Positions 20,231-62,700 of a DNA stretch of 64,000 nucleotides are shown here, one piece after another; within the stretch, counting starts at the first letter, position 1, and the number at the start of each line of letters is the position of its first letter. The translations under genes were made by a program, and so were the position numbers. Source of the stretch: Eledone cirrhosa. Taxonomy: Eukaryota. The notes below the pieces were generated by a model. The model was not told the origin of the DNA. It saw only the letters and a program-made list of their open reading frames with translations, and did not search any database. The DNA is taken from the NCBI GenBank assembly GCA_964016885.1, contig OZ024757.1, positions 4,464,001 through 4,528,000 of the forward strand, written 5' to 3'.

Positions 20231-20232
20231 CC

Positions 20233-29099: not shown

Positions 29100-29448
29100 T
29101 ATTTAAATTGTTGGGATACAAGAAGCAAATATTTTTATAACAAAATAAAGCACTCAACAAATTATTGGAGTAAAATTACGATATATTAACAAATGGAAAC
29201 TATATTTATAAAACCATATTTATTTCATTATATATATTTGAAGGACACCAAGTTAAATTATGGTGTGCTTTCATCAGATAAAATATAATATAGAGCAGTT
29301 TTATAAATAAATATTGACATACCCTTAAAGAATGCAACCATTTCTGTTGGAAGCTCCCGGATAGTTGGGTTATAAATTTATTTATACTATTATGTAAATT
29401 AGTTTCGGATATTTTAAAATCAGAGTAGATTTAAATAAGCCGGTGGGT

Positions 29449-30870: not shown

Positions 30871-31258
30871 TATTTTTATTTTTATTTTTATTTTTATTTA
30901 TATTTAGGAAAAAAAATGTTTTAACTTGAGAGTTTAAGCAGTCAAATGAAGAAATCTAATGATTTATCGATAGGTTCAATATATTAATAGAATTAATTAA
31001 TTATATATTACATTTTAAATTTATATTTAAACGTTGAGTTCAATCTATGTCTGCAGCAACTGAATAAATTGTTCCTTAGGTTCAGGGAATTTTTGGTCTT
31101 TAATATAAAGAATGTTTCCTCTATACAAAGATCACAATTTTCTGAAGAGGAGTTAAAATGAGTAGCTTTTGAAATAATATTCCAAAGCAACGAATATTTA
31201 ACGTTCTTTAATTTGAGGTCCCATAATAAGCTACATAGAGAAGTTGAAGATTTTTTGT
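29100..31258 (-). mobile_element. AT-rich Penelope-like 3' end with long 3' UTR
   Basis: 31008-31258 encodes [37 protein letters not shown] hammerhead-like motif lies about 1.7 kb downstream. Linking the two is inference. Confidence 0.65.
29221..29285 (-). ncRNA. Type I hammerhead ribozyme, core mutated (GAAA to CAAA)
   Basis: tattttat-CTGATGA-aag-c-acacca-loop-tggtgt-c-ctt-CAAA-tatata-TA-atgaaata. Confidence 0.7.
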
Positions 31259-31259
31259 T

Positions 31260-34700: not shown

Positions 34701-34743
34701 CACCACTGACGATGTTGCAGATGTACAACGAAAGAACTTTGAT
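34701..34743 (+). ncRNA. Minimal hammerhead ribozyme in the second pLTR of PLE 2
   Basis: CTGACGA-t-GTTG-cagatgta-CAAC-GAAA-G-aa-CTT. Confidence 0.68.
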
Positions 34744-35812: not shown

Positions 35813-35998
35813 AATTGTTTCTACTTTTGGCACAAGGCCAGCAATTACCCAGTGTATTACTGGTACTTTATTTTATCGACCCCATAAGGATGAAAGGCAA
35901 AGTTAACCTCGGCTGGATTTGAACTCAGAATGGCAAGGGCCGTAACTCTATGCGTCAAAGCATGGCGTCCGACCCTCTACCGATACTGCAAATCCACT
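35813..35998 (-). mobile_element. tRNA-related SINE (same family as 12173-12355) inside PLE 2
   Basis: Its reverse complement closely matches 12173-12355. Sits in an (AAT/AAC)n tract. Confidence 0.85.
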
Positions 35999-37531
35999 AG
36001 AAACATTAAACACAGACACAGCAGCAGCGACCACAGTAGCAATAACGGTAACAATACGAACAACAACAACAATAACCTCATTGGTAATAATGGAAATAAT
36101 ACATGTAGCAACATTAATGATAGACACAACAAAAACAAGAAACATAATAAAAGTAACAACCACAATGGTAGAAATAACAGTAACAACAACAACAACAATA
36201 ACGGTGAAGTAAACAACAATACATCTAGCAATCATAACAATAATAATAATGCTAATGATAGGAACAACAACCACCATGATAACAATAATAGCAACACACA
36301 CAACTATGACGATAGATATAATGACAACCCCTTAGAGAAACTATTTTTCAACCCAGCTGACAAAACATAAAAGATGGGTAATATCTATCCTACGAGGTTA
36401 CCCTTTAATAAAAGAATTTGCATACCACAACAAATAGATGACGAGACAGAGGCACAGTTCACCATAGCTAGAAATAAGATTAGACAAATAGTAGACCGGT
36501 ATACTAAGAGATAGAGCAGACCAGAGGCCCAACAACTTGGGAGGAAACCTGTAGAAGGCTTGGTTAGCCTCAAGCAGCGCACAAGGGATGGTGAGGTAGT
36601 ATGTCTACCCACGGATAAGTCTCGTAGGATGTCAATAGATAGCATGCCGAACTACATCAAGGCTATGAAACCCCACATCACCAACACGAGCGAAATTGCA
36701 CAGCAAACACATGATGAGAGAGATAAAATCCTCAACGCTCACATGATGATGTGGACTGACATCCTAAAGCCAAGCAGACACACTGCCAACAACTTCCAGG
36801 CGTCTAACAATGGCATACCACCCTTGTATGGGCTCCGCAAAGACCACAAGTCAGTCGATGACCCGACAACAGGACCGCCAACAAGACCCGTTTGCGGAGC
36901 TAATATAGCTAGCAACTATAGGATCTCCTACTTCCTCTCAATGGTTATACGCCCCATAATCAAGATGTCCCCAGATGTATGTGACAGTACAGAGGACCTC
37001 CTCAGCAGAATCAGTGAGTGCAACAAAAACAGGAACCTATCCAACTGCATAATAGGCAGCATGGATGTGGTGTCACTGTACCCATCCATTAACATTGATT
37101 TTTCTGTGGAAAAATGTGGGGAGATGATCATTGAGAGTGAGGTGTAGTTCTGCGACATCGACACAGACGAACTGGCCTCCTACTTAGACTTACCTACGAC
37201 ACCGACTACCTAGACAGCCATGACCTTAGATGTTTCTGCCCTAGAAGACCCATAAGAGGTAGACCCCCCACCATAACCTCAATGGCAAAAAAGACTCCCA
37301 TGGGAAGATGGATTGGGTAGACCAAAGCTATACGGACCCCCCAAAACAATGATCAGGTAAGAAAAATGGTTGCACATGCAATAGGGGCTAGTATCAAAAC
37401 TACCCTACACCCAAAATGAGGGAGCAGCCATTGGCGTCAGCATAGCTGGTGATGTTGCCAACCTTTTCATGGTATTGTGGGAAAGGAGACTTGAAGATCT
37501 CCTTAATGAGAGCTCCATAGACCTCATCATG

Positions 37532-41354: not shown

Positions 41355-41700
41355 GGAGGCACATGGCTTAGTGGTTAGAGCATTGGCCTTGCAATCGAAA
41401 GGTTGCGAGTTCAATTCTCAGACCGGGTGATGTGTTGTTTCCTTGAGCAAGACACTTTATTTCACATTGCTCCAGTTTACTCAGCTGTAGAAATGAGATG
41501 ATAGCGACTGGGGTCCATATCATTCCACTGCAAAGTGGTCGTGGAGGTGCCACGGAAAAAAAGCACCCAGCACTCACTGTAAATGAGGTTGGTGTTAGGA
41601 AGGGTATCCAGCTGTAGAAATCAAGCCAGAATCAGTTCCCGTCTCACCCTTGCAAGCAGGGAAAAAGCGGACGTAAAATGAAATGATGATGATCATGATG
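41355..41700 (+). mobile_element. tRNA-derived SINE with RTE-like 3' end
   Basis: A box TGGCTTAGTGG, B box GAGTTCAATTC, TCCTTGAGCAAGACACTT core. 3' part shared with the RTE 3' UTR. (ATG)n tail. TSD ATACTAT at 41348-41354 and 41701-41707. Confidence 0.88.
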
Positions 41701-42678
41701 ATACTATTGTATTTTCATGGTAAAGGCTTTACCTCACATAATATCTCACATAACATTTTCATTACTCTATATATACTATTGTATTTTCACAGTAAAGGCT
41801 TTACCTCACATACTATCTCACATTACATTTACATTACTCTATATATACTATTATATTTCCATGGTAAAGGCTTTACCTCACATAATATCTCACATAACAT
41901 TTACATTACTCTATATATACTATTGTATTTTTATGGTAAAGGCTTTACCTCACAAAATATCTCACATAACATTTACATTACTCTATATATACTATTGTAT
42001 TTCCATGGTAAAGGCTTTACCTCACATAATATCTCACATAACATTTACATTACTCTATATATACTATTGTATTTTTATGGTAAAGGCTTTACCTCACATA
42101 ATATCTCACATAACATTTTCATTGCTCTATATATACTATTATATTTTCACAGTAAAGGCTTTACCTCACATAATATCTCATAACACTTACATTACTCTAT
42201 ATATACTATTGTATTTTCACAGTAAAGGCTTTACCTCACATACTATCTCACATTACATTTACATTACTCTATATATACTATTATATTTCCATGGTAAAGG
42301 CTTTACCTCACATAATATCTCATATAACATTTACATTACTCTATATATACTATTGTATTTTTATGGTAAAGACTTTACCTCACAAAATATCTCACATAAC
42401 ATTTACATTACTCTATATATACTATTATATTTCCATGGTAAAGGCTTTACCTCACATAATATCTCACATAACTTTTACATTACTCTATATATACTATTGT
42501 ATGTTTATGGTAAAGGCTTTACCTCACATAATATCTCGCATAACATTTACATTACTCTATATATACTATTATATTTCCATGGCAAAGGCTTTACCTCACA
42601 TAATATCTCACATAACATTTACATTACTCTATATATACTATTGTATTTTTATGGTAAAGGCTTTACCTCACAAAATAT
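41701..42678. repeat. 72-bp tandem repeat, about 13.5 units
   Basis: Unit ATACTATTGTATTTTCATGGTAAAGGCTTTACCTCACATAATATCTCACATAACATTTACATTACTCTATAT. Gives 24-aa periodicity in the ORF track. Confidence 0.95.
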
Positions 42679-43039
42679 CGAATCTACGAGATTTTGATGT
42701 TGTTTATTTTGAGAACAATACCTTAACATCAGTATGAGTGGCCAGTTACAACCAGTTTGAACAGAAGAAAGAGGTGAGAGAATTCTGACCAGATATGGCT
42801 AGTTTAAGGGTTAAACAAGAGCAAAAAAGAAAGAAGAGGAGTAAAAAAGTAAAAATATTATTATTATTTTTATTAATAAAGAAATTAAAAAATTCTTCCC
42901 AACACAATATTTTATCTAAATAACAACAACAACAATAATAACAGTGTCCTCACTTTCAGCTTATATAGGTGGCAGGTTGAAAACCCCTGAGACTAGAGTG
43001 GGGCTCCACATGGTTGCAACCCCGGGACTAGGGCTAGCG

Positions 43040-43156
43040 TTAATCTCTACATTTCACATCAATCACTGTTTTACCCCGGCTGTGTCCGTTCTGCACATGG
43101 TTGTAGGCCTGAGGCAACTGATCAAAGGGGAACACTTTATCAATGACTGGTCGTAT
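43040..43156 (-). CDS. RTN4IP1: RTN4IP1 terminal coding exon
   Basis: IRPVIDKVFPFDQLPQAYNHVQNGHSRGKTVIDVKCRD*, matching the recalled human C-terminus IRPVIEQTFPF..GHARGKTVI. Acceptor TTTACAG. Phase 0. Confidence 0.92.
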   Translation of the reverse strand: MRPVIDKVFPFDQLPQAYNHVQNGHSRGKTVIDVKCRD

Positions 43157-45107: not shown

Positions 45108-45200
45108 AGTGCCATTGTCCACCAACTGACCAATACGTTCCAAGGCTCTCCGGTCAGGAATGAAGAAAGCCCAGCGATAACTCTGACCATTCTTTAGGTT
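45108..45200 (-). CDS. RTN4IP1: RTN4IP1 internal exon (93 bp)
   Basis: NLKNGQSYRWAFFIPDRRALERIGQLVDNGT (human YRWAFF...LVDAGK). Acceptor TTGCAG, donor GTAAGT. Phase 0/0. Confidence 0.92.
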
Positions 45201-45925: not shown

Positions 45926-46100
45926 CTCAAGAATATTACATCCAAGGGCAGTGGCAGAGCGTAGGATACCCATAGGTAACCCATGGGTGTCAGTGTCCTC
46001 AAGAAAAGGGGTCTTTATTGTCACATATTTGGCATTGCACCAATTCTTCAAGACATTCCGAGAGGGTTTCTTACCAAGAACATCAAGGTAGATGTCAAAC
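45926..46100 (-). CDS. RTN4IP1: RTN4IP1 internal exon (175 bp)
   Basis: FDIYLDVLGKKPSRNVLKNWCNAKYVTIKTPFLEDTDTHGLPMGILRSATALGCNILE (human FDFILDNVGG..YVTLVTPFL). Acceptor ACCAG, donor GTTTGT. Phase 2/0, matching its neighbours. Confidence 0.9.
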
Positions 46101-46109
46101 CTGGTAATA

Positions 46110-46475
46110 TAGAGAGAGGAGAGGTGAGAGTAGAGAGTTGTAGAGAGGGTAGCAGAGTGTGGTGAGAGTAGAGAGTTGTAGAGTGGTGTCGTGAGAGTAG
46201 AGAGTTGTAGAGAGGGTAGCAGGGTGTAGTGAGAGTAGAGAGTTGTAGAGAGGGTAGCAGGGTGTGGTGAGAGTAGAGAGTTGTAGAGAGGGTAGCAGGG
46301 TGTGGTGAGAGTAGAGAGTTGTAGAGAGGGTAGCAGGGTGTGGTGAGAGTAGAGAGGGTAGCAGGGTGTGGAGGGAGTAGAGACAGTAGCAGGGTGTGGT
46401 TGGAGTAGAGAGGTGCGGTGGGAGTAGAGAGGTGTAGAGAGGTAGCGAGGTGTAGTGGGAGTAGAGAGGGTAGCA
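46110..46475. repeat. 38-bp purine-rich minisatellite
   Basis: Unit GTGAGAGTAGAGAGTTGTAGAGAGGGTAGCAGGGTGTG. Abuts the exon acceptor. Confidence 0.9.
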
Positions 46476-46854
46476 TGTATTCTGTTAAATAGATATCCAG
46501 TGTCTCTAATCAATAGATTATATTGATTAGATTTTTTCGATGATCATTTACATAGATTGATTTTGAGCTACACTTTCCAGGTATGAAATAGCACTATAAG
46601 GTTTCTCTTATGTTTCCACCTATGTACATATTCTTCTATAGAATGTGTATGTGGTATATACAATATACCATCTTTCTTATACAATATATGGCTCTCTCTA
46701 TATATATACTTGGGGAGGGGCATACTGTTGTATATAAATATCCCCAAGTATAACAATATTTGTTTCGACACACGATTTCATCACTGTCTCTCTCTCTCTA
46801 TATATATATATACAATATATTAATAAATGGAAACTATATTTATAAAACCATATT

Positions 46855-46920
46855 TATTTTATTATATATATTTCAAGGGCAACCAAGGCAAATTATGGTG
46901 TGCTTTCATCAGATAAAATA
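46855..46920 (-). ncRNA. Type I hammerhead ribozyme, intact core, sense to RTN4IP1 pre-mRNA
   Basis: tattttat-CTGATGA-aag-c-acacca..tggttgc-c-ctt-GAAA-t-atat-a-TA-ataaaata. Perfect 8-bp stem I; stem II imperfect. Confidence 0.75.
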
Positions 46921-48121
46921 CAGATTTGTTTTATAAATAAATATTGACATACCCGGAAAAAAGATAACCTTAACGGTTGGAGCTTCCTGGATAGTGGAGA
47001 TAATATTTTAATTGAGGGTAATACAAAGTTATGAGTGAGTATGCAAATGAGTGTCTGAAAAGTTGAAAAGATAACGGTTTATTTAAATTAAACTGTTGGA
47101 AGAAGAGGATATGTAAGGGAGAGAGAAGAAAAGGAAGGAGAAAGAGAGAAGAAAGAAAAAATGATTATACATAGTGATAGTGAAGATAGTCAAAGTGAAG
47201 GAGGAAATAAATTTTAATGGAGGAATATACGGAACTAAATATATCTAAGTGAAAGAAGAAATAAGATTAACGTGGAAGAATAATATTTAGAATGTAGGGT
47301 TCATTACGTTGTGATTATAATATTTATAATGATAAGTTGAAAAATTAAATTAAAATTAAAAATTAAAAATCAAAATTAAAGATTAAAATTTACTTTAATA
47401 TTAAAAATTTAATTTAATATTAATACTAAAATAAAAAATTAAAATTAAAATAAAAAATTAAAATTAGAACAGAAGTATTTATATTATATTGTGCCTAAAG
47501 TAGAAACAATTATGTATTAGTAATAATATATTGGTTTAGATGTGTATGTTATGGATTATAAATTATTTAAATGTATAATATTTGTCGACTAGTATGGTTT
47601 GTGATATTTATACCTAAATATATACAAAAAATATAACTTTCTGAGTCCCAAAACATACCCAAAATGAGTAAAATATATAAATGCATGAATGATTTACAGT
47701 TCAATTATAACCGGTAATCTTACAAGTTATATATCCAAATTATATATTTAAAACAAAGACAAATATATATAAGGATCCGAATCTAAATTATAAATATCTA
47801 AAATAATCCAAAGGTGTGCATATTCATCAAGAGAACAAGTTAACAAATAATATGTTTATATACCTAAACAAGAAAAAATTTTATTCATTACTCAGAATTA
47901 AATTAAATATTTTGAATATTAACGGTCAACCAGATATGTTTAGATATATATTGTATATATGGATAATTGTCTAAAGACTTGAACATAAGTTATTCCTCTT
48001 TATCTCTCTCTGTGTAATCAACTCTCTTTTGTTTTTCTAGGCCCCTACTAACTAAAAATCTATGCTTTTCTTTTCTTTCCTCTTTCTTAAGTAATTTAAA
48101 TTATTTAACAGTTAAGCCAAA

Positions 48122-51100
48122 TTCACCTCGTGGACGAGAATGCAAGCACTCCTCCTTGTTTCGGCCCAGGATGGCTAACATAACCCCATCCCCCCCCCCC
48201 CCGCGCCCCACCGCTCCCACCCTCCAAACGCAATCCAAAACTTCAGAGTTGGTACCATGAATGTAGGCACCTTAAAGGGTCGCTCTAACGAGGTTGTAGA
48301 AATGCTTGAACGTAAGGAGGTCGATGTTTGTTGTATTCAAGAGACCAGGTGGAGGGGAGGGTCGGCTAGATTCATCGTGGGTAAAGAGCGATGCTATAAG
48401 CTTTTCTGGGTGGGAAATGACAATGGGTTGGGTGGGGTAGGAATCACGGTAGCAGAAAAGTGGGCAGATAAGATAATAGACGTAAATAGAGTGAACGACA
48501 GAATAATTAAAATAAGACTTGTCCTCAATAAAACTACGGTGACAGTAATATCTGCGTACGCACCCCAATCCGGACAGCCCCGCGCTATAAAAGACAGATT
48601 CTACGAGACACTGATGCTCGCTACCTCCCAAATAACCGACAGTGACTATATAGTTATTGCAGGCGACCTAAATGGTCACGTTGGACAACATTGTGACGGC
48701 TATGACGGAATCCATGGAGGCTATGGGTTCGGTACTAGAAATGAGGAAGGCTCCAGAATCCTGGAATTCTGCGACGCAAATAACTTAACTATCTGTAACA
48801 CTAACTTCAAAAAACGAGACAATCACTTGATCACCTATAGATCGGGGGAACACACAAGCCAGGTAGATTATATCCTTACCAGAAGACGTGACAGAGTGTC
48901 TGTTGTTAACACTAAATCCCACCCCCATGAAGAATTCACCTCCCAACATAGACTGATAATTAGCGACCTCATAGTCAGGACGAGACGTACTAGACAGCGA
49001 AAGAGGACTATCCTCAGGAGAAAAATATGGAAGCTAAAGGACCCCATAGCCAGAAATAAATTTCAAAGCAAATTACTTGACGCTTTCGACAGTAAGGAAG
49101 AGCAATTAGAGTCGTATAATATAGAGGAACAGTGGGAATTCCTGAGAGCAAACCTGCTGACGGCGGCAGACGAAGTCTGTGGCTGGAGCAGGCCTGTAGG
49201 TAGGAGGAGAGTAACATGGTGGTGGAACAGTAAGGTGGAGGAGTCAATTAAGGCCAAAAAGCAGGCTTGGAAAGTATGGCGGAAGTAGAGAAGACTATCA
49301 AGTGGCCAGGAGGGAAGCTAGGAGACAAGTGTACTTCGCAAGAAGGGAAGCAGAGGAAAGAAAGTTCAAGCATGTTCTACAACGTGAGGACCAAAAACGT
49401 GAGGTGTTCAGGATTGCCAGGCAATCTGTCAAGGAAAACCGTGATATTGTCGGGGAGAAGTGTGTACTTAACGATGATGGCATACTTGCCATCACCGACG
49501 CTGATAAGAAGGTAGCTTGGAAGTGTCACTACGAAAGGCTTCTAAATGAGGAGAACAAATGGGAGAAAGACAGTCTCCCCCAGATCGATCCAATAGAGGG
49601 ACCAGCAGTGTTAGTTGAAGGTAGTATAATAAGTAAGGCAATCAAAGATATGAAGACGGGTAAGGCGGCTGGGCCTTCGGAAATAGTTGCTGAGATGCTG
49701 AAGGCATCTGGTTCGGTGGGACACACCATGGTCACCCGGATAGTTAACCAAGTCGTACAGAATGGGGTTGTTCCGAAGGAATGGCGTAGCAGCATCATTG
49801 TTAACTGCTATAAGGGAAAAGGAGATGCCCTAGATAGGAGTAACTATAGAGGCATTAAATTAATCGACCAGGTCATGAAGGTCACGGAAAAAGTAATAGC
49901 GCAACTAATCAGAGAGAGAATTGATCTAGATGAAATGCAGTTCGGGTTTGTGTCAGGCAAAAGTACCACAGACGCTCTTTTCATTGTACGACAACTACAG
50001 GAGAAGTACCTAGGTAAAAGTAAACCCCTATACTTATCTTTTGTCGACTTGGAGAAAGCCTTCGACAGAGTCCCCCGTTCCATTATCTGGTGGTCTCTTA
50101 GAAAACTAGGTGTTGACGAATGGCTTGTGAGAGCTATACAAGCCATGTATAAAGAAACAGTCAGTAAGGTTAGAATTAACAACGAATATAGTGAAGAGTT
50201 TAGTGTAAAAGTTGGTGTCCATCAGGGCTCTGTACTTAGCCCCCTACTATTTATTATTGCCCTTCAGGCTATAACAGAGGAGTTCAAGACCGGCTGCCCA
50301 TGGGAACTCCTATACGCAGATGATCTAACGCTCATAGCTGAATCAATGACCGAACTAGAGAAGAAATTCCAAACGTGGAAGCACGGCCTAGAATCAAAAG
50401 GCCTTAAAATTAACCTGGCTAAGACTAAAGTTCTAGTTTGTAGGAAAGAAAATAAGGCGGCGGTCCCATCGGGGAAATGGCCATGCTCAGTGTGTAGGAA
50501 AGGCGTAGGTAGAAACTCCATTTTATGTCCCAAATGCAAAGTATGGGTGCATAAAAGATGTAGTGGGATCACAGGTAAGCTAACTAAGAACATAGATTTT
50601 ACATGTGGCCGGTGCTCTGGTGCAATAAGTAGCAGCAAGTGCCCACAAAATACTAGCTCCTTCAACTGCGCAGAGGGTTCTATAGAAATAGTGGACAGCT
50701 TCCGTTATCTGGGTGACAAAATCAGCAGTGGGGGAGGGTGCTCTGAAAGTACAGTAGCTAGAGTCAGAACTGGATGGAAAAAGTTCAGAGAGCTTATACC
50801 ACTATTAGCCGCTAGAGGGTTCTCCCTAAAAATGAAAGGCAGGTTATACGATGCCTGCATACGAACAGCAATGCTGCATGGCAGTGAGACCTGGGCATTG
50901 TGTGCAGAGGATATACGCAGACTAGAGAGGAACGAAGCTTGCATGCTCCGCTGGATGTGCAATAGTAATATACGTGAACGGCAAAGCATAAACGAACTAA
51001 GGAAAAAATTAGAAATAAGAGGGATCAGATGTTGTTTACTCGAGAGAAGGCTACGTTGGTACGGTCACGTGATGCGCATGAAAGACGACAGCTGTATAAC

Positions 51101-51778
51101 AAAGTGCAGGGCAATAAAGATAGACGGTAGCCACGGAGTAGGCAGACCCAGAAAAACATGGGACGAGCTGATAAATTCCGACCTCACACGCTTACACTTC
51201 TCCAAGACAATGTCACTGGACCGAGACCTTTGGCGGTACTCAGTAATAGAGAAGTCCCGCCTTACCTAAATACAAAGTAAAAACCTACTACAGTCAGTAG
51301 GCACCTCTATCAAAACACACCCCCGTCCCACCACCTCCACCCCACCCACACCGCCCCTTTCAATGTAAAGTTATGTTGGTCCCACAACATCCAGGCCGAA
51401 ACAAATGAGATCGTGTAGGTGTCACGACAAAAAACACACAGTCCACGCTGTAAATGTGGCCGTGTAGGCAACACGGTAAAAACCTCCCAGCCCCACACTG
51501 TAAATGTGGTTGGTGTTAGGAAGGGCATCCAGCTGTAGAAAACCCGCCAGACAGTCCACGCTGTAATGTGGCCGTGTAGGCAACATGGTAAAAACCTCCC
51601 AGCCCCACACTGTAAATGTGGTTGGTGTTAGGAAGGGCATCCAACTGTAGAAAACCCGCCAGACAGTCCTATGCGAGCAAGACAACCACTCTTGCCTCAA
51701 GTGGGAAAACCCCCGTCCAAACCCATGCAAGCGTGGAACACGGACGCTAAACCTGATGATGATGATGATGATGATGAT
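48122..51778 (+). mobile_element. RTE-clade LINE, near full length, one frameshift, antisense in an RTN4IP1 intron
   Basis: APE (NVGTL, QETRW, SAYAPQ, GDLNGHVG, VDY, SQH) and RT (YRGIKL, FVDLEKAFD, GVHQGSVLSPLLF, YADD), C-terminal RLRWYGHV..GRP..TW, (GAT)n tail. Confidence 0.93.
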
Positions 51779-51953
51779 TGATGCCAAGTATTTTTTAAGC
51801 TGTCTCACACGCACCCTCTCTATTGTATGTAGTATATATTTTTCTCATGTTCTCAATATTAAGGTATATAAATATTGAGTTTTGTCATATATTACTCACT
51901 ACCATGACTGAATCTTAACCATCTACTAAGTCAGGGTATGTCATGCATCATCT

Positions 51954-52020
51954 TATTTTATCTGATGAGGACGTACTGTTGAAGTTAACTCAGTACCTCT
52001 GAAATATGTATAATAAAATA
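51954..52020 (+). ncRNA. Type I hammerhead ribozyme, intact core
   Basis: tattttat-CTGATGA-gga-c-gtactg-loop-cagtac-c-tct-GAAA-t-atgt-a-TA-ataaaata. Confidence 0.8.
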
Positions 52021-52164
52021 TACTTGATCATAAGAATATCTATTTTGTTAATATTTTGAATTAATATTAATAACTCTGGAAACCTCTCAGTTGAGTGCTT
52101 CCAATCTATTGTAAAACTCATTCTTTGATTTATTCATTGAACCTTGTTTAACTTTTAAATATGT

Positions 52165-52208
<44 letters not shown>

Positions 52209-52328
52209 CAATGAGTTATTGAATTTGTTGATAATTCAACAAATTTAGTTTATAACAGCTTAGAAGCACTCAACAGCATTCTTATCAATAATATTAATAA
52301 ATGGAAGCTATCTTTATAAAACGATATT

Positions 52329-52389
52329 TATTTTATTATATATATTTCAAGGGTACCAAAACTTTGGTACGCTCTCATCAGATAAAATA
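52329..52389 (-). ncRNA. Type I hammerhead ribozyme, intact core, sense to RTN4IP1 pre-mRNA
   Basis: tattttat-CTGATGA-gag-c-gtacc-loop-ggtac-c-ctt-GAAA-t-atat-a-TA-ataaaata. Confidence 0.8.
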
Positions 52390-52464
52390 CAAAAGTTGGT
52401 TTATAGATAGTGACATATTCAAACTAGAACTTAATGTTGTGATTTCTATTTGAATAGAACACAA

Positions 52465-53575
52465 TGGTTGGTTGGTTGGATGGAGGGCTGGTGTTTGGTT
52501 CGATGTAGGGCTGGTTGGTTGGTTGGTTGGTCGGAGGGCTGGGTGGTTGGGTGGTTGGTTGGTTGGTTGGTTGGTTGGTTGGAGGGTTGGTTGGTTGGAG
52601 GGTTGGTTGGTTGGAGGGTTGGTTGTTTTGTTGGTTGGTTGGTTGGTTGGTTGGAGGGCTGGTTGGTTGGCTGGTTGGTTGGTAGGTTGGTTGGAGGGTT
52701 GGTTGTTTTGTTGGTTGGTTGGTTGGTTGGTTGGAGGGCTGGTTGGTAGGCTGGCTGGTTGGTTGGAGGGCTGGTTGGTTGGTTGGAGGGCTGGTTGGTT
52801 GGTTGGAGGGCTGGTTGGTTAGAGGGCTGGTTGGTTGGATGGGGGCCTGGTTGGTTGGTTGGAGGGCTTGTTGGTTAGAAGGCTGGTTAGTTGGTTGGTT
52901 GGTTGGTTGGAGGGCTGGTTGGTTGGTTGGTTAGTTGGTTGGAGGGATGGTTGGTTGGTTGGTTGGTTGGTTAGAGGGCTGGTTGGTTGGTTGGGGGGCT
53001 AGTTGGTTGGTTGGTTGGAGAGCTGGTTGGTAGGTTAGAGGGCTGGTTGGTTGAGGGCTGGTTGGTTGGAGGGCTGGTTTCTTGGTTGATTGGCTGGTTG
53101 GTTGGATGGTTAGTTGGTTGGTTGGATGGTTAGATGGTTGGTTGGTGGGTTGGATGGTTGGTTGGAGGACTGGTTGGTTGTTTGGATGATTGGTTAGACA
53201 GTTGGATGGTTGGTTGGTTGGTTGGTTGGATGGTTGATTGTACGGTTGGATGGTTGGATGGCTGGACGGCTAGATGGATGGATGGTTGGTTGGTTGGTTC
53301 GTTCGTTGGATGTTTGGCTGGTTGGATGGCTGGATGGAAGGTTGGATGGTTGGTTGGACGTTAGATGGATGGTTGGACGGTTGGATGGTTGATTTGACAG
53401 TTGGATGGATGACTGGCTGGTTGGATGGATGGTTGGTTGGATGGCTGGACAGTTAGATGGATGGTTGGATGGTTGGAGGGCTGGAGGGTAAATGGTTGGA
53501 TGGATGGTTGGACGGTTGAATGGTTGGATGGTTGGTTGGTTGGATCGTTGGATGGTTGGACGGTTGGATGGTTGG
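52465..53575. repeat. (GGTT)n/(GGAT)n-based G-rich simple repeat
   Basis: Direct reading. Ends a few bases from the exon donor. Confidence 0.95.
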
Positions 53576-53586
53576 TCTTAACTCAC

Positions 53587-53723
53587 CCGTCCATCTTTGC
53601 CAGTTCGTCCTCTTCTATCTGTGTTTTATAATCAATGACCTTATCAGCTCCAAGTGAGGTGACGAGGTCAACAGCATTTGTACTGCAAGTGGAGGTGACA
53701 TAGGCACCCCAGCCCTTCATCAG
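53587..53723 (-). CDS. RTN4IP1: RTN4IP1 internal exon (137 bp); upstream exons lie outside the window
   Basis: [46 protein letters not shown] (human VMKAWDAHVTAVCS..LGADDVIDYK). Acceptor TTTTCAG, donor GTGAGT. Phase 0/2. Confidence 0.92.
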
Positions 53724-53744: not shown

Positions 53745-56700
53745 CATAGGTGTCAGATAGAGAGGGGGAAAGATAGGACCTCTTTTACTAGGTGTGAGTG
53801 AGAGAGATAGGACCTCCTTCACTAGGTGAGAGAGAGAGATATGATCTCCTTCATTAGGTATGAGAGAGAGAGAGATAGGACCTCCTTCACTAGGTGAGAG
53901 AGAGAGAGATAGGAGCTCCTTCACTAGGTGAGAGAGAGAGATAGGATCTCCTTCACTAGGTATGAGAGAGAGATATGACCTCCTTCACTAGGTGAGAGGG
54001 AGAGAGAGATAGGATCTCCTTCACTAGGTGTGAGTGAGAGATAGGATCTCCTTCACTAGGTGTGAGTGAGACATAGGATCTCCTTCACTAGGTGTGAGTG
54101 AGAGAGATAGGATCTCCTTCACTAGGTGTGAGAGAGAGAAATAGGACCTCCTTCACTAGGTGTGAGAGAGAGAGATAGGATCTCCTTCACTAGTTGAGAG
54201 AGAGATAGGACCTCCTTCACTAGTTGAGAGAGAGATAGGACCTCCTTCACTAGGTGAGAGAGAGATAGGACCTCCTTCACTAGGTGAGAGAGAGATAGGA
54301 CCTCCTTCACTAGGTGTGAGAGAGAGAGATAGGATCTCCTTCACTAGTTGAGAGAGAGAGAGAGATAGGACCTCCTTCACTAGGTGAGAGGGAGAGAGAG
54401 ATAGGATCTCCTTCACTAGGTGTGAGTGAGAGATAGGATCTCCTTCACTAGGTGTGAGTGAGACATAGGATCTCCTGCACTAGGTGTGAGAGAGAGATAG
54501 GATCTCCTTCACTAGGTGTGAGAGAGAGATAGGATCTCCTTCACTAGGTGTGAGAGAGAGAGATAGGATCTCCTTCACTAGGTGTGAGAGAGAGAGATAG
54601 GACCTCCTTCACTAGGTGTGAGAGAGAGATAGGATCTCCTTCACTAGGTGTGAGAGAGAGAGATAGGATCTCCTTCACTAGGTGTGAGAGAGAGAGATAG
54701 GATCTCCTTCACTAGGTGTGAGAGAGAGATAGGACCTCCTTCACTAGTTGAGAGAGAGATAGGACCTCCTTCACTAGGTGAGAGAGAGAGAGAGATAGGA
54801 TCTCCTTCACTAGGTGAGAGAGAGACAGATAGGACCTCCTTCACTAGGTGAGAGAGAGAGAGATAGGATCTCCTTCACTAGGTGTGAGAGAGAGATAGGA
54901 CCTCCTTCACTAGTTGAGAGAGAGATAGGACCTCCTTCACTAGGTGAGAGAGAGAGAGATAGGACCTCCTTCACTAGGTGAGAGAGAGATAGGACCTCCT
55001 TCACTAGTTGAGAGAGAGAGAGAGAGATAGGATCTCCTTCACTAGGTGTGAGTGAGAGAGATAGGAGCTCCTTCACTAGGTGAGAGAGAGAGAGAGATAG
55101 GATCTCCTTCACTAGGTGTGAGAGAGAGATAGGACCTCCTTCACTAGTTGAGAGAGAGATAGGACCTCCTTCACTAGGTGAGAGAGAGAGAGATAGGATC
55201 TCCTTCACTAGGTGTGAGAGAGAGATAGGACCTCCTTCACTAGTTGAGAGAGAGATAGGACCTCCTTCACTAGGTGAGAGAGAGAGAGATATGATCTCCT
55301 TAACTAGGTGTGAGAGAGAGATAGGACCTCCTTCACTAGTTGAGAGAGAGATAGGACCTCCTTCACTAGGTGAGAGAGAGAGATAGGACCTCCTTCACTA
55401 GGTGTGAGTGAGAGAGATAGGATCTCCTTCACTAGGTGTGAGAGAGAGAGATAGGACCTCCTTCACTAGGTGAGAGAGAGATAGGACCTTCTTCACTAGT
55501 TGAGAGAGAGAGAGAGATAGGACCTCCTTCACTAGGTGTGAGTGAGAGAGATAGGATCTCCTTCACTAGGTGAGAGAGAGAGATAGGACCTCCTTCACTA
55601 GGTGAGAGAGAGAGAGATAGGACCTCCTTCACTAGGTGTGAGAGAGAGAGATAGGACCTCCTTCACTAGGTGAGAGAGAGAGAGAGAGAGATAGGATCTC
55701 CTTCACTAGGTGAGAGAGAGAGAGAGATAGGACCTCCTTCACTAGTTGAGAGAGAGATAGGACCTCCTTCACTAGGTGAGAGAGAGAGATAGGACCTCCT
55801 TCACTAGGTGTGAGAGAGAGAGATAGGACCTCCTTCACTAGGTGAGAGAGAAAAGAGAGATAGGACCTCCTTCACTAGGTGAGAGAGAGAGAGATAGGAC
55901 CTTCTTCACTAGGTGAGAGAGAGAGAGATAGGACCTCCTTCACTAGGTGAGAGGGAGAGAGAGATAGGACCTCCTTCACTAGGTCAGAGAGAGAGATAGG
56001 ACCTCCTTCACTAGGTGAGAGAGAGAGATAGGACCTCCTTCACTAGGTGTGAGAGAGAGAGATAGGATCTCCTTCACTAGGTGTGAGAGATAGAGATAGG
56101 AACTCCTTCACTAGGTGAGAGGGAGAGACAGATAGGACCTCCTTCACTAGGTGAGGGAGAGAGAGAAATAGGACCTCCTTCACAAGGTGAGAGAGAGAGA
56201 TAGGACCTCGTTAACTAGGTGTTAGAGAGAGATAGGACCTTCTTCACTAGGTGTGAGAGAGAGATAAGATCTCCTTCACTAGGTGAGAGGGAGAGAGAGA
56301 TAGGACCTCCTTCACTAGGTGAGAGAGAGAGATAGTACCTCCTTCACTAGGTGAGAGAGAGAGATATGATCTCCTTCACTAGGTGAGAGAGAGATATAGG
56401 ATCTCCTTCACTAGGTGAGAGAGAGAGAGAGAGAGATAGGACCTCCTTCACTAGGTGTGAGAGAGAGATAGGACCTCCTTCACTAGGTGAGAGAGAGAGA
56501 GATAGAATCTCCTTCACTAGGTGTGAGAGAGAGAGATAGGATCTCCTTCACTAGTTGAGAGAGAGAGAGATAGGATCTCCTTCACTAGTTGAGAGAGAGA
56601 TAGGACCTCCTTCACTAGGTGTGAGAGAGAGAGATAGGATCTCCTTCACTAGTTGAGAGAGAGAGAGATAGGATCTCCTTCACTAGTTGAGAGAGAGATA

Positions 56701-59700
56701 GGACCTCCTTCACTAGGTGAGAGAGGGAGAGAGATAGGACCTCCTTCACTAGGTGTGAGTGAGAGAGATAGGATCTCCTTCACTAGGTGCGAGAGAGATA
56801 GGACCTCCTTCACTAGTTGAGAGAGAGAGAGAGATAGGACCTCCTTCACTAGGTGTGAGTGAGAGAGATAGGATCTCCTTCACTAGGTGAGAGAGAGAGA
56901 TAGGACCTCCTTCACTAGGTGTGAGTGAGAGAGATAGGATCTCCTTCACTAGGTGTGAGAGAGAGAGATAGGACCTCCTTCACTAGGTGAGAGAGAGATA
57001 GGACCTCCTTCACTAGTTGAGAGAGAGAGAGAGATAGGACCTCCTTCACTAGGTGTGAGTGAGAGAGATAGGATCTCCTTCACTAGGTGAGAGAGAGAGA
57101 TAGGACCTCCTTCACTAGGTGAGAGAGAGAGAGATAGGACCTCCTTCACTAGGTATGAGAGAGAGAGATAGGACCTCCTTCACTAGGTGAGAGAGAGAGA
57201 GAGAGAGATAGGATCTCCTTCACTAGGTGAGAGAGAGAGAGAGATAGGACCTCCTTCACTAGTTGAGAGAGAGATAGGACCTCCTTCACTAGGTGAGAGA
57301 GAGAGATAGGACCTCCTTCACTAGGTGTGAGAGAGAGAGATAGGACCTCCTTCACTAGGTGAGAGAGAAAAGAGAGATAGGACCTCCTTCACTAGGTGAG
57401 AGAGAGAGAGATAGGACCTTCTTCACTAGGTGAGAGAGAGAGAGATAGGACCTCCTTCACTAGGTGAGAGGGAGAGAGAGATAGGACCTCCTTCACTAGG
57501 TCAGAGAGAGAGATAGGACCTCCTTCACTAGGTGAGAGAGAGAGATAGGACCTCCTTCACTAGGTGTGAGAGAGAGAGATAGGATCTCCTTCACTAGGTG
57601 GGAGAGATAGAGATAGGACCTCCTTCACTAGGTGAGAGGGAGAGACAGATAGGACCTCCTTCACTAGGTGAGGGAGAGAGAGAAATAGGACCTCCTTCAC
57701 AAGGTGAGAGAGAGAGATAGGACCTCGTTAACTAGGTGTTAGAGAGAGATAGGACCTTCTTCACTAGGTGTGAGAGAGAGATAAGATCTCCTTCACTAGG
57801 TGAGAGGGAGAGAGAGATAGGACCTCCTTCACTAGGTGAGAGAGAGAGATAGTACCTCCTTCACTAGGTGAGAGAGAGAGATATGATCTCCTTCACTAGG
57901 TGAGAGAGAGATATAGGATCTCCTTCACTAGGTGAGAGAGAGAGAGAGAGAGATAGGACCTCCTTCACTAGGTGTGAGAGAGAGAGATAGGATCTCCTTC
58001 ACTAGTTGAGAGAGAGAGAGATAGGATCTCCTTCACTAGTTGAGAGAGAGAGAGATAGGATCTCCTTCACTAGGTGTGTGAGAGAGATAGGATCTCCTTC
58101 ACTAGTTGAGAGAGAGAGAGATAGGATCTCCTTCACTAGGTGTGTGAGAGAGATAGGATCTCCTTCATTAGGTGTGTGAGAGAGATAGGATCTCCTTCAC
58201 TAGGTGTGTGAGAGACATAGGATCTCCTTCACTAGGTGTGAGAGAGATAGGACCTCCTTCACTAGGTGTGTGAGAGAGAGATAGGATCTCCTTCACTAGG
58301 TGTGTGAGAGAGAGAGGATCTCCTTCACTAGTTGAGAGAGAGAGAGATAGGATCTCCTTCACTAGGTGTGTGAGAGAGATAGGATCTCCTTCACTAGGTG
58401 TGTGAGAGAGATAGGACCTCCTTCACTAGGTGAGAGAGAGAGAGAGAGAGATAGGATCTCCTTCACTAGGTGTGAGAGATAGAGATAGGACCTCCTTCAC
58501 TAGGTGAGAGGGAGAGACAGATAGGACCTCCTTCACTAGGTGAGAGAGAGAGAGAGATAGGACCTCCTTCACAAGGTGAGAGAGAGAGATAGGACCTCGT
58601 TAACTAGGTGTTAGAGAGAGATAGGACCTTCTTCACTAGGTGTGAGAGAGAGATAGGATCTCCTTCACTAGGTGAGAGGGAGAGAGAGATAGGACCTCCT
58701 TCACTAGGTGAGAGAGAGAGATAGGACCTCCTTCACTAGGTGAGAGAGAGAGATATGATCTCCTTCACTAGGTGAGAGAGAGATATAGGATCTCCTTCAC
58801 TAGGTGAGAGAGAGAGTGAGAGAGATAGGACCTCCTTCACTAGGTGTGAGAGAGAGAGATAGGACCTCCTTCACTAGGTGAGAGAGAGAGAGATAGGACC
58901 TCCTTCACTAGGTGAGAGAGAGATAGGACCTCCTTCACTAGTTGAGAGAGAGAGAGAGAGATAGGATCTCCTTCACTAGGTGTGAGTGAGAGAGATAGGA
59001 GCTCCTTCACTAGGTGAGAGAGAGAGATAGGATCTCCTTCACTAGGTGTGAGAGAGAGATAGGACCTCCTTCACTAGTTGAGAGAGAGATAGGACCTCCT
59101 TCACTAGGTGAGAGAGAGAGAGATAGGATCTCCTTCACTAGGTGTGAGAGAGTGATAGGACCTCCTTCACTAGTTGAGAGAGAGATAGGACCTCCTTCAC
59201 TAGGTGAGAGAGAGAGAGATATGATCTCCTTAACTAGGTGTGAGAGAGAGATAGGACCTCCTTCACTAGTTGAGAGAGAGATAGGACCTCCTTCACTAGG
59301 TGAGAGAGAGAGAGATAGGACCTCCTTCACTAGGTGTGAGTGAGAGAGATAGGATCTCCTTCACTAGGTGCGAGAGAGATAGGACCTCCTTCACTAGTTG
59401 AGAGAGAGAGAGAGATAGGACCTCCTTCACTAGGTGTGAGTGAGAGAGATAGGACCTCCTTCACTAGGTGAGAGAGAGAGATAGGACCTCCTTCACTAGG
59501 TGTGAGTGAGAGAGATAGGATCTCCTTCACTAGGTGTGAGAGAGAGAGATAGGACCTCCTTCACTAGGTGAGAGAGAGATAGGACCTCCTTCACTAGTTG
59601 AGAGAGAGAGATAGGACCTCCTTCACTAGGTGTGAGTGAGAGAGATAGGATCTCCTTCACTAGGTGAGAGAGAGAGATAGGATCTCCTTCACTAGGTGAG

Positions 59701-62700
59701 AGAGAAAAGAGAGATAGGACCTCCTTCACTAGGTGAGAGAGAGAGAGATAGGACCTTCTTCACTAGGTGAGAGAGAGAGAGATAGGACCTCCTTCACTAG
59801 GTGAGAGAGAGAGAGATAGGACCTCCTTCACTAGGTGTGAGAGAGAGAGATAGGACCTCCTTCACTAGGTGAGAGAGAGAGAGAGAGAGATAGGATCTCC
59901 TTCACTAGGTGAGAGAGAGAGAGAGATAGGACCTCCTTCACTAGTTGAGAGAGAGATAGGACCTCCTTCACTAGGTGAGAGAGAGAGATAGGACCTCCTT
60001 CACTAGGTGTGAGAGAGAGAGATAGGACCTCCTTCACTAGGTGAGAGAGAAAAGAGAGATAGGACCTCCTTCACTAGGTGAGAGAGAGAGAGATAGGACC
60101 TTCTTCACTAGGTGAGAGAGAGAGAGATAGGACCTCCTTCACTAGGTGAGAGGGAGAGAGAGATAGGACCTCCCTCACTAGGTCAGAGAGAGAGATAGGA
60201 CCTCCTTCACTAGGTGAGAGAGACAGATAGGACCTCCTTCACTAGGTGTGAGAGAGAGAGATAGGATCTCCTTCACTAGGTGTGAGAGATAGAGATAGGA
60301 CCTCCTTCACTAGGTGAGAGGGAGAGACAGATAAGACCTCCTTCACTAGGTGAGAGAGAGAGAGAAATAGGACCTCCTTCACAAGGTGAGAGAGAGAGAT
60401 AGGATCTCGTTAACTAGGTGTTAGAGAGAGATAGGACCTTCTTCACTAGGTGTGAGAGAGAGATAAGATCTCCTTCACTAGGTGAGAGGGAGAGAGAGAT
60501 AGGACCTCCTTCACTAGGTGAGAGAGAGAGATAGTACCTCCTTCACTAGGTGAGAGAGAGAGATATGATCTCCTTCACTAGGTGAGAGAGAGATATAGGA
60601 TCTCCTTCACTAGGTGAGAGAGAGAGAGAGAGAGAGAGATAGGACCTCCTTCACTAGGTGTGAGAGAGAGAGATAGGATCTCCTTCACTAGTTGAGAGAG
60701 AGAGAGATAGGATCTCCTTCACTAGTTGAGAGAGAGAGAGATAGGATCTCCTTCACTAGGTGTGTGAGAGAGATAGGATCTCCTTCACTAGTTGAGAGAG
60801 AGAGAGATAGGATCTCCTTCACTAGGTGTGTGAGAGAGATAGGATCTCCTTCATTAGGTGTGTGAGAGAGATAGGATCTCCTTCACTAGGTGTGTGAGAG
60901 ACATAGGATCTCCTTCACTAGGTGTGAGAGAGATAGGACCTCCTTCACTAGGTGTGTGAGAGAGAGATAGGATCTCCTTCACTAGGTGTGTGAGAGAGAG
61001 AGGATCTCCTTCACTAGTTGAGAGAGAGAGAGATAGGATCTCCTTCACTAGGTGTGTGAGAGAGATAGGATCTCCTTCACTAGGTGTGTGAGAGAGATAG
61101 GACCTCCTTCACTAGGTGAGAGAGAGAGAGATATAGGATCTCCTTCACTAGGTGAGAGAGAGAGAGATAGGACCTCCTTCACTAGGTGAGAGAGAGAGAG
61201 ATAGGATCTCCTTCACTAGTTGAGAGAGAGATAGGACCTCCTTCACTAGGTGAGAGAGAGAGATAGGACCTCCTTCACTAGTTGAGAGAGAGATAGGACC
61301 TCCTTCACTAGGTGAGAGAGAGAGAGAGATAGGACCTCCTTCACCAGGTGTGAGTGAGAGAGATAGGACCTCCTTCACTAGGTGAGGGAGAGAGAGATAG
61401 GACCTCCTTCACTAGGTGAGAGAGAGATAGGACCTCCTTCACTAGTTGAGCGAGAGAGAGAGATAGGACCTCCCTCACTAGGTGTGAGTGAGAGAGATAG
61501 GATCTCCTTCACTAGGTGAGAAAGAGAGAGATAGGACCTCCTTCACTAGGTGAGAGAGAGATAGGACCTCCTTCACTAGTTGAGAGAGAGAGAGAGATAG
61601 GACCTCCTTCACTAGATGTGAGTGAGAGAGATAGGATCTCCTTCACTAGGTGAGAGAGAGAGATAGGACCTCCTTCACTAGGTGAGAGAGAGAGAGATAG
61701 GACATCCTTCACTAGGTGTGAGAGAGAGAGATAGGACCTCCTTCACTAGGTGAGAGAGAGAGAGAGAGAGATAGGATCTCCTTCACTAGGTGAGAGAGAG
61801 AGAGAGATAGGACCCCCTTCACTAGTTGAGAGAGAGATAGGACCTCCTTCACTAGGTGAGAGAGAGATAGGACCTCCTTCACTAGGTGTGAGAGAGAGAG
61901 ATAGGACCTCCTTCACTAGGTGAGAGAGAAAAGAGAGATAGGACCTCCTTCACTAGGTGAGAGAGAGAGAGATAGGACCTTCTTCACTAGGTGAGAGAGA
62001 GAGAGATAGGACCTCCTTCACTAGGTGAGAGGGAGAGAGAGATAGGACCTCCTTCACTAGGTCAGAGAGAGAGATAGGACCTCCTTCACTAGGTGTGAGA
62101 GAGAGAGATAGTATCTCCTTCACTAGGTGAGAGAGAGAGAGAAAGGACCTTCTTCACTAGGTGAGAGAGAGAGAGATAGGACCTCCTTCACTAGGTGTGA
62201 GAGAGAGATAGGACCTCCTTCACTAGGTGAGAGAGAGAGATAGGACCTCCTTCACTAGGTGTGAGAGAGAGAGATAGGATCTCCTTCACTAGGTGTGAGA
62301 GATAGAGATAGGACCTCCTTCACTAGGTGAGAGGGAGAGACAGATAGGACCTCCTTCACTAGGTGAGAGAGAGAGAGAGATAGGACCTCCTTCACAAGGT
62401 GAGAGAGAGACATAGGACCTCGTTAACTAGGTGTTAGAGAGAGATAGGACCTTCTTCACTAGGTGTGAGAGAGAGATAGGATCTCCTTCACTAGGTGAGA
62501 GGGAGAGAGAGATAGGACCTCCTTCACTAGGTGAGAGAGAGAGATAGGACCTTCTTCACTAGGTGAGAGAGAGAGATATGATCTCCTTCACTAGGTGAGA
62601 GAGAGAGATAGGACCTCCTTCACTAGGTGTGAGAGAGAGAGATAGGATCTCCTTCACTAGTTGAGAGAGAGAGAGAGATAGGATCTCCTTCACTAGTTGA

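What the first reader, a model, noticed from the sequence alone, without database searches (positions are those of the whole stretch)
46855..52389. Family of covarying hammerhead ribozymes, two of them sense-oriented in an RTN4IP1 intron
Seen: four motifs (29221-29285 -, 46855-46920 -, 51954-52020 +, 52329-52389 -) share an 8-bp all-A/U stem I (TATTTTAT/ATAAAATA), CTGATGA and GAAA cores (CAAA in the 29221 copy), a tiny AT-rich stem III and an AUA cleavage triplet. Stem II differs in sequence but keeps the same shape: 3 bp, a C.C mismatch, then 5-6 bp (gga/tct+gtactg/cagtac; gag/ctt+gtacc/ggtac; aag/ctt+acacca/tggtgt). Known: Penelope-like elements carry type I hammerheads with short stem III that often act as dimers. 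Inference: the two intact minus-strand copies are both in the RTN4IP1 pre-mRNA and could pair through their palindromic (AU)n stem III and cleave the 7.5-kb intron.
Basis: partly seen in the sequence, partly recalled or inferred. Interest (0 to 1): 0.75.

Follow-up and report, generated by a model that had tools for sequence, protein, structure and literature searches.

The report
Penelope retrotransposon stubs carrying hammerheads
The four self-cutting-RNA motifs are real, but they are the ribozyme-bearing ends of broken copies of a known kind of jumping gene that has left tens of thousands of such ends in this animal genome, and the two inside the RTN4IP1 intron are predicted to be unable to cut it.

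Summary
The four type I hammerhead motifs are at the stated places (0 of 200 shuffles give any). They are 3' ends of 5'-truncated Hydra-clade Penelope-like retrotransposons (PLEs). A tight pattern finds 55,755 in the 3.0-Gb genome. The 29221 copy still has its endonuclease end 1.7 kb upstream, and a sister copy has a 742-aa ORF with all Hydra motifs checked. Stem II covaries (8 of 9 pairs). The helix III hexamer is mostly self-complementary: TATGTA 22,849 against its mirror TACATA 54, which favours a dimer.

Cleavage of the RTN4IP1 intron is not supported. The 52329 copy is predicted to pair with the antisense 51954 copy (about 25 kcal/mol against the active fold), the helix III duplex is weak (-3.2 kcal/mol), and close same-strand pairs are common. 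No RNA data were available.

Of side interest: copies end about 50 or about 140 nt past the cleavage site, each end just before a small hairpin, and 16 of 20 head-to-head pairs have one end of each kind. This scan has already reported Hydra hammerheads and these hairpins on other DNA, including this genome. Verdict: new member of a known kind, low interest.

The parts
29221..29285 (-). Hammerhead copy A; G12C core change (CAAA), predicted dead; predicted cleavage after 29229
   Evidence: sister copies have GAAA
29088..31259 (-). 5'-truncated Hydra-clade PLE: endonuclease C-terminus, about 1.7 kb 3' UTR, hammerhead A, long tail ending in (TA)n
   Evidence: (colinear with L098 and L100 over about 2.1 kb, 86-88%)
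31008..31259 (-). C-terminal piece of the GIY-YIG-type endonuclease (CDLC..E..N..CRH)
   Evidence: 63 of 70 residues identical to the 742-aa ORF of L111
29150..29171 (-). Tail hairpin 1 (ACTC..GAGTGC) of copy A, candidate reverse-transcription start signal (inferred)
46855..46920 (-). Hammerhead copy B, sense in the RTN4IP1 intron; intact core, distorted stem II; predicted cleavage after 46863
46813..47583 (-). 5'-truncated PLE end, subfamily B: about 650 nt of 3' UTR, hammerhead, short end (+50) in (TA)n
   Evidence: endonuclease upstream in 7 of 11 sister loci, two of which overlap
47577..47850 (-). Inverted piece of subfamily C 3' UTR, likely the remains of copy C's head-to-head arm
   Evidence: 67-73% to L128 and L130
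47875..48106 (+). Upstream part of the copy C element, separated from the rest by a LINE insertion
   Evidence: element positions about -460 to -195; resumes at -173 at 51777
48107..51776 (+). LINE (AP endonuclease, RT, PHD-like finger; label RTE recalled) inserted into the copy C element
51954..52020 (+). Hammerhead copy C, antisense to RTN4IP1; predicted cleavage after 52012
51777..52160 (+). PLE end, subfamily C, long tail; young (97-99% to most listed copies over 184 nt)
   Evidence: ORF upstream in 3 of 8 sister sites
52073..52098 (+). Tail hairpin 1 (ACTC..GAGTGC) of copy C
52160..52206 (.). (TA)n array shared tail-to-tail by copies C and D (insertion target)
52329..52389 (-). Hammerhead copy D, sense in the intron; predicted to be sequestered by antisense copy C; predicted cleavage after 52337
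52207..52457 (-). Short PLE end, subfamily D, long tail that has lost the ACTC arm of hairpin 1
   Evidence: partial ORF upstream in 2 of 10 sister loci
53587..53723 (-). RTN4IP1-like exon 5' of the intron
45926..46100 (-). RTN4IP1-like exon 3' of the intron
45108..45200 (-). Next RTN4IP1-like exon, inferred from splice sites and frame, not searched
43040..43156 (-). Last coding exon of the RTN4IP1-like gene

Best explanation
The four motifs are the hammerhead-bearing 3' ends of independent, 5'-truncated insertions of Hydra-clade Penelope-like retrotransposons at (TA)n runs; the ribozyme likely serves the transposon's own tandem RNA as a dimer and is likely silent in the RTN4IP1 pre-mRNA. Shown: copy number, link to an RT-endonuclease ORF with Hydra motifs, ends in (TA)n at two fixed distances, covariation of stem II, self-complementary helix III. 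Inferred: in a tandem or circular element RNA two hammerheads pair through the 8-nt helix III and cut 186 nt before the ATG, probably slowly or with help from the element's protein. The endonuclease nicks (TA)n, and reverse transcription starts inside the RNA about 50 or about 140 nt past the cleavage site, just before one of two small hairpins. It then runs back through the hammerhead, so the template must be uncut or religated, and usually stops early, leaving stubs like these.
For: Counts: 29,176 and 55,755 pattern hits, reversed-pattern control 0. Link to ORF: of 20 loci picked from 150 scored endonuclease hits, 13 have this hammerhead 1.4-1.8 kb downstream in sense, 1 at 2.6 kb, 6 none. 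The L111 ORF has RWR, DKT, CxCx5C, no GxKF/Y, one Cys only inside the GIY-YIG-like motif, CxxC and CxH, the Hydra definition in PMC8557442 section 11. Ends: 41 of 80 at +35-70 and 30 of 80 at +130-175 run into (TA)n, background 10%. Covariation: 8 of 9 stem II pairs with two-sided changes, 96.7% of cells paired, 0/500 shuffles as high, slid controls 36-53%. Dimer: 54,030 of 55,755 hexamers are TRYRYA; TATGTA 22,849 vs TACATA 54; TGCGCA subfamily. Silence: constrained hammerhead fold 0.05-1.8% for monomers; D paired with antisense C, z -7.9, ddG 24.9 kcal/mol. Literature: single PLE motifs showed no cleavage and dimers low cleavage (PMC4209133); the anole PLE hammerhead needed protein and no reads ended at its site (PMC11167929).
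Against: No cleavage assay and no RNA reads. Pfam gives no RT or GIY-YIG hit for the L111 ORF, so the domain call rests on motifs and on comparison by eye with published Hydra proteins; no tree with reference PLEs was built. Parent ORFs were found for only 3 of 8 C-type and 2 of 10 D-type sites. Copies are related, so covariation and hexamer counts are not independent events, and TRYRYA also admits A.C mismatches. Stem I shows only one-sided changes. Before antisense C is transcribed, nascent D has a 0.2% constrained fold, so a brief window for trans pairing is not excluded.
Confidence: 0.9

Rival explanations
1. One reading: copies B and D pair through helix III across 5.5 kb and cleave the RTN4IP1 intron, affecting splicing or mRNA level.
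For: Both are sense in a 7,486-nt intron with intact cores. Their helix III 8-mers are fully complementary. Two sense copies in 7.5 kb has Poisson P=0.002 at mean density. Intronic ribozymes in CPEB3 and amniote genes are precedents, without proof of function (PMC6765202 passages).
Against: D is predicted to be masked by antisense C. The duplex is only -3.2 kcal/mol, and the intron has 22 AUAUAUAU sites, B's and D's own included. Clustering makes such pairs common: 12 among the first 100 hits in 12.4 Mb. B and D are separate subfamilies inserted independently, in an intron of which 78% matches repeats elsewhere.
Confidence: 0.03
2. The motifs belong to a non-autonomous retrozyme or SINE family that amplifies as short units or RNA circles.
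For: Most copies are short; L006 and L017 share only about 200 nt around the motif. Tandem hammerhead repeats of another family exist in this genome (466-nt period, L064).
Against: 5' ends vary from about -30 to several kb and run into the ORF. None of the four window copies is in a head-to-tail array, and the layout is inverted pairs with tails, as in PLEs.
Confidence: 0.05
3. The motif is a fossil or protein-binding structure that never cleaves, even in the element's own RNA.
For: Weak A/U stem I, non-canonical 10.1-11.1 pair (A-U or G.U), and alternative folds that bury GAAA in B and D. In the anole PLE, cleavage was not needed for insertion in vitro (PMC11167929). Compatible with PLE origin; it differs only on activity.
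Against: The core is nearly invariant while stem II has been rewritten with compensation, and helix III stays self-complementary across subfamilies.
Confidence: 0.15

Closest known systems
Hydra clade of C-terminal EN+ Penelope-like elements (Craig et al. 2021, PMC8557442; e.g. Hydra-1_Obim, Hydra-2_Amil)
   Same: Single ORF with RT then endonuclease; RW[K/R], DKT, CxCx5C, no CCHH, CxxC and CxH; type I hammerhead near the 3' end; (TA)n insertion; inverted 5'-truncated copies and a one-sided tail.
   Different: Hammerhead sequence unlike any of the Hydra motifs listed in File S2: 8-bp A/U stem I and a bipartite stem II with a C.C mismatch. 3' UTR of 1.4-1.8 kb, so the unit is longer than the <3 kb given for most Hydra families. 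Tail of about 90 nt against 30-40 bp described for PLEs. At least 55,755 copies.
Minimal PLE hammerheads (Cervera and De la Pena 2014, PMC4209133; Lunse et al. 2016, PMC5785218, seen only as a reference title)
   Same: Type I, large helix II, palindromic helix III, thousands of solo copies per genome, pairs on opposite strands 100-700 bp apart, many covarying families.
   Different: No G10.1-C11.1 pair and no obvious extra base after position 9 in the fold used here; stem I longer (8 bp vs 4-5).
Poseidon element PAc of Anolis carolinensis (Frangieh et al. 2024, PMC11167929)
   Same: Two internal reverse-transcription start sites define the tail; AT-rich targets; hammerhead upstream of the start sites.
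   Different: In PAc the starts lie in an AC-rich stem-loop 111-118 nt inside the ORF and the hammerhead overlaps the ATG. Here both ends lie in the 5' UTR, about 90 nt apart, each just before a copy of an RCTC..GAGYGC hairpin, and the ATG is 186 nt past the cleavage site.
Non-LTR retrozymes (PMC7229834, listing only; bioRxiv 10.64898/2026.07.22.740005)
   Same: Type I hammerhead, PLE-derived, often intronic (about 43% in Xenopus).
   Different: Retrozymes are short tandem units without ORF; these are dispersed truncations of ORF-bearing elements.

Membership tests
Type I hammerhead ribozyme | CUGANGA and GAAA cores with NUH cleavage triplet | tested here: met
   Met in B, C, D; not met in A (CAAA)..
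Type I hammerhead ribozyme | Three helices, stem I open-ended, with covariation | tested here: met
   stem II 8 of 9 pairs two-sided; helix III 2 of 4; stem I one-sided only.
Type I hammerhead ribozyme | Match to an Rfam hammerhead model | tested here: not met
   no hammerhead hit. Not a defining feature of the class; PMC4209133 needed a relaxed descriptor for such motifs.
Type I hammerhead ribozyme | Self-cleavage | not testable with these tools
   No assay; no RNA run listed.
Penelope-like element (EN+) | Single ORF with RT and C-terminal GIY-YIG-type endonuclease linked to the repeat | tested here: met
   (YRDD; VVY..YVG). Pfam gave no hit for L111, so this rests on motifs and comparison by eye.
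Penelope-like element (EN+) | Pseudo-LTRs, partial tandems, inverted 5'-truncated copies, one-sided tail | tested here: met
   L103, L107, L111 have an upstream repeat running into the ORF; 22 head-to-head neighbours among 100 hits; 16 of 20 pairs short+long.
Hydra clade | RWK-like motif present, GxKF/Y absent, DKG changed to DKT | tested here: met
   RWR at 37, DKT at 118, no GxK[FY] in L111.
Hydra clade | CxCX5C linker, no CCHH, CxxC and CxH around the conserved E and N | tested here: met
   CNCRNKSNC at 601, no CX2-5CxxC, CDLC at 699, CRH at 726; same motifs in the C-type parent L129.
Hydra clade | Insertion into (TA)n and a hammerhead at the 3' end | tested here: met
   71 of 80 copies end in (TA)n in one of two windows.
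Hydra clade | Placement in the Hydra clade on an RT tree | not tested
   Reference proteins were seen only as text in the paper's supplement; no tree was built.
Non-LTR retrozyme | Short ORF-less units in head-to-tail tandem, each with a hammerhead | tested here: not met
Host-exapted intronic ribozyme (CPEB3 or amniote type) | Single conserved locus, monomer-competent fold | tested here: not met
   55,755 copies; monomer fold 0.05-1.8%. Cross-species conservation not testable: no relatives are held.

The most novel reading that the evidence does not exclude
In these Hydra elements a duplicated RCTC-loop-GAGYGC hairpin in the 5' UTR is the signal that sets where reverse transcription starts. 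One insertion event uses both hairpins of one uncut or religated RNA, one for each nicked DNA strand, which is why head-to-head pairs have one short and one long arm. Together with the genome-wide helix III counts, this would give a defined RNA signal for PLE priming and population-scale evidence that the hammerhead is kept as a dimer.
Probability: 0.45. Interest if true: 0.55.

Novelty: new member of a known kind. Interest (0 to 1): 0.22.

Why it matters
As given, it matters little: hammerheads in PLE ends, their large numbers, dimer design and (TA)n targeting are published, and a Hydra family from an octopus is already described. It does show that a 3-Gb genome tolerates over 55,000 intact-core hammerheads, some sense in introns, which suggests they are effectively off in host transcripts. 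The more useful part is for PLE mechanism: two fixed ends, twin hairpins and the short-plus-long rule give a concrete, testable model of internal priming for a clade with no biochemistry that I found (5 paper searches).

Tried and rejected
Rfam scans: no hammerhead family. First candidate parent, the endonuclease at 606-962: a different Hydra-like family; 1 of 30 loci had this hammerhead in sense downstream, 1 upstream and 1 antisense, but the flanks were only 1.5 kb, so this is not a matched control. RNA evidence: no RNA holder listed; three contig runs of unknown kind from one sample laid on 51700-52460 gave only repeat-derived short contigs and nothing on cleavage or polymorphism. Pfam on three full ORFs: no useful hit. 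A genome pattern for both hairpins was too narrow (13 hits, one subfamily). One row (L012B) of the hairpin alignment had wrong coordinates and is ignored. Search of earlier findings by sequence: nothing. Lunse et al. 2016 is not held. An orientation test of intronic copies was not possible without annotation. Supplements of the 2026 bioRxiv preprint were not seen and could bear on retrozyme-PLE links in invertebrates. No structure or complex prediction was run.
Full report
Observation. A descriptor needing both cores, three stem II pairs and seven stem I pairs finds 4 in the window and none in 200 local shuffles. A covariance model built from 50 copies, these included, finds no further copy at E<0.01. 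Rfam has no hammerhead hit here. Copy A (29221) has G12C and one U.G pair in stem I. Copy B (46855) does not have the tidy 3 bp, C.C, 5-6 bp stem II; it has an extra base, as its subfamily does. The host gene is RTN4IP1-like on the minus strand, with a 7,486-nt GT..AG intron at 46101-53586. B and D are sense in it, C is antisense, and A lies about 14 kb beyond the stop codon.

Copy number. The window is C18:4464001-4528000 of a 2,995,841,428-base genome. One exact pattern gives 29,176 hits and a wider one 55,755, about one per 54 kb, evenly on both strands, with 0 for the reversed control. Degenerate copies such as A are not counted. The organism is not given; the best named homolog of the element protein is an Argonauta hians hypothetical protein at 39% identity (322 hits among 7,986 candidates scored).

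What the repeat is. Around 30 sampled hits, homology starts at variable points upstream and stops at fixed points downstream (both outputs partly cut). Upstream of copy A lies the C-terminus of an endonuclease (31008-31259), 90% identical over 70 residues to a 742-aa ORF in L111. I took 20 loci from the 150 scored hits to this peptide (12 from the top of the list, 8 for long open frames). Thirteen carry the same hammerhead in sense 1.4-1.8 kb after the stop, one at 2.6 kb, six none. For subfamily B, 7 of 11 sister loci have the endonuclease upstream (two overlap); for C, 3 of 8 sites; for D, 2 of 10, partial. The L111 protein has RWR, DKT, YRDD, a CxCx5C linker, no CX2-5CxxC, a single Cys inside the GIY-YIG-like motif, CxxC and CxH. 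These are the features that PMC8557442 (section 11 read, passages, supplement sheets S1 and S2) uses to define the Hydra clade, which carries hammerheads, inserts in (TA)n and includes Hydra-1_Obim. Pfam does not recognise the ORF and no tree was built, so clade membership rests on motifs.

Anatomy in the window. A is a 2.2-kb truncated copy with a long tail. B is a 0.8-kb copy with a short end. C is a young copy whose upstream part was split by a 3.7-kb LINE (48107-51776), with a remnant inverted arm at 47577-47850. D is a 0.25-kb stub that meets C tail-to-tail on one (TA)n run at 52160-52206. The four belong to four subfamilies. At least 78% of the intron matches sequence in the fetched loci (5,861 of 7,486 nt).

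Structure. On 50 distinct sequences chosen from the 80 distinct ones collected plus window copies, 96.7% of cells pair; 8 of 9 stem II pairs change on both sides; slid controls give 36-53%. The copies are related, so these are not independent events. Stem I varies on one side only. The hexamer between A15.1 and U16.1 is TRYRYA in 54,030 of 55,755; this class also admits A.C mismatches, so it is an upper bound. TATGTA occurs 22,849 times and its DNA mirror TACATA 54 times. In RNA the first self-pairs with two U.G wobbles and the second cannot. A large subfamily has TGCGCA, a double compensatory change. The central pair cannot form in a monomer hairpin, so this favours a dimer (inference). Founder effects could inflate the ratio, though TATGTA appears with several different stem II types.

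The intron idea. As monomers the constrained hammerhead fold has probability 0.05% (B) to 1.8% (D). In 51900-52440 of the pre-mRNA, D and antisense C form a long fold-back (-136.8 kcal/mol, z -7.9, 0 of 100 shuffles); both cores of D are predicted paired and the active fold costs 24.9 kcal/mol. Before C is transcribed D's value is 0.2%. The B-D helix III duplex is -3.2 kcal/mol across 5.5 kb, with 22 AUAUAUAU sites in the intron, their own included. Poisson odds of two sense copies in this intron are 0.002, but copies cluster: 12 same-strand pairs within 7.5 kb among the first 100 hits. In PMC4209133 (parts 1-2 of 4 read) single motifs did not cleave and dimers cleaved weakly. In PMC11167929 (parts 1-2 of 4 read) the anole hammerhead cut only with protein, was not needed for insertion, and no reads ended at its site. 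No RNA data could be laid. I give intron cleavage of consequence about 3%.

Mechanism of the element. Of 80 copies, 41 run into (TA)n at +35-70 past the cleavage site, 30 at +130-175, 4 elsewhere and 5 not at all; background is 10%. In three copies where the repeat continues into the ORF (L103, L107, L111), each of the two end points is followed within about 10 nt by a hairpin, ACTC..GAGTGC and GCTC..GAGCGC, and the ATG is 186 nt past the cleavage site. L155, of another subfamily, also shows both. The hairpins are weak on their own (-3.8 and -4.5 kcal/mol). Of 20 head-to-head pairs picked by eye from the lists have one short and one long arm. Of the other four, two fit but have a later insertion in one arm (L159, L165), one has a +32 end and a disrupted arm (L150), and one has a long arm and an arm running past the second hairpin (L155). 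By analogy with the two internal start sites of PAc, the ends likely mark reverse-transcription starts. Because every copy keeps a whole hammerhead upstream of its start, the template was uncut or religated (inference).

Comparison and novelty. It works like, and on all motif tests is, a Hydra-clade PLE end with a minimal dimer-type hammerhead. It differs from published Hydra families in hammerhead sequence, UTR length, tail length and copy number. Five searches showed no paper on this family or on the twin hairpin; the library lacks most subscription papers, and Lunse et al. 2016 was seen only as a title. PMC6765202 and the 2026 bioRxiv preprint were read as passages (the latter also part 1 of 5). 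The scan's own index holds 55 findings with these words in at least 4 genomes, including this one. I had reached the Hydra reading before that look-up; the hairpin lead came from it and was then tested here.

Verdict. Observation confirmed; PLE origin and dimer design supported; intron cleavage not supported. New member of a known kind, interest 0.22.

Noticed in passing
L064:7109-8973 (G000:C14:22138000-22147999): Another hammerhead family in five head-to-tail copies at a 466-nt period, retrozyme-like, helix III CTAG palindrome.
   Followed up: no
window 606-1553 (-) and 19297-20249 (+); L061:2514-5096: Pieces of other Hydra-like PLE families (861-aa ORF in L061) with a different, C-rich 3' UTR; the first look found 50,331 candidates for this endonuclease.
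   Followed up: partly
G000 C1, e.g. 540607-540674; L100, L150-L163: A large sister subfamily with longer stem II and a TGCGCA helix III, often in near-identical head-to-head pairs.
   Followed up: partly
window 25747-27946 (+), 32111-37147; L061:6383-9847: Second kind of PLE (RT plus GIY-YIG, long N-terminus with Asn-rich tract; 1,155-aa frame in L061) in inverted arrangements.
   Followed up: no
window 53760-64000: 10-kb satellite of 32-34-nt units filling the next upstream RTN4IP1 intron, with higher-order repeats.
   Followed up: no
window 48107-51776 (+): Nearly whole LINE with a PHD-like Cys-rich finger after the RT domain, broken near 49250, inserted into copy C.
   Followed up: partly
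window 6195-6278: Near-perfect 84-nt hairpin at the end of a LINE (4170-6239, minus); Rfam miRNA hits are below gathering score.
   Followed up: no
window 20372-22978 (+): Broken LTR-retroelement pol remnant (RT, RNase H and integrase-like frames by eye).
   Followed up: no
window 41629-42790: 72-bp tandem repeat, about 13 copies, just downstream of the RTN4IP1-like gene.
   Followed up: no
window 46853-46922 and 52323-52391 (-): In B and D the 5' strand of stem I is predicted to pair with the GAAA-helix III segment, an alternative 'off' fold of the monomer.
   Followed up: partly
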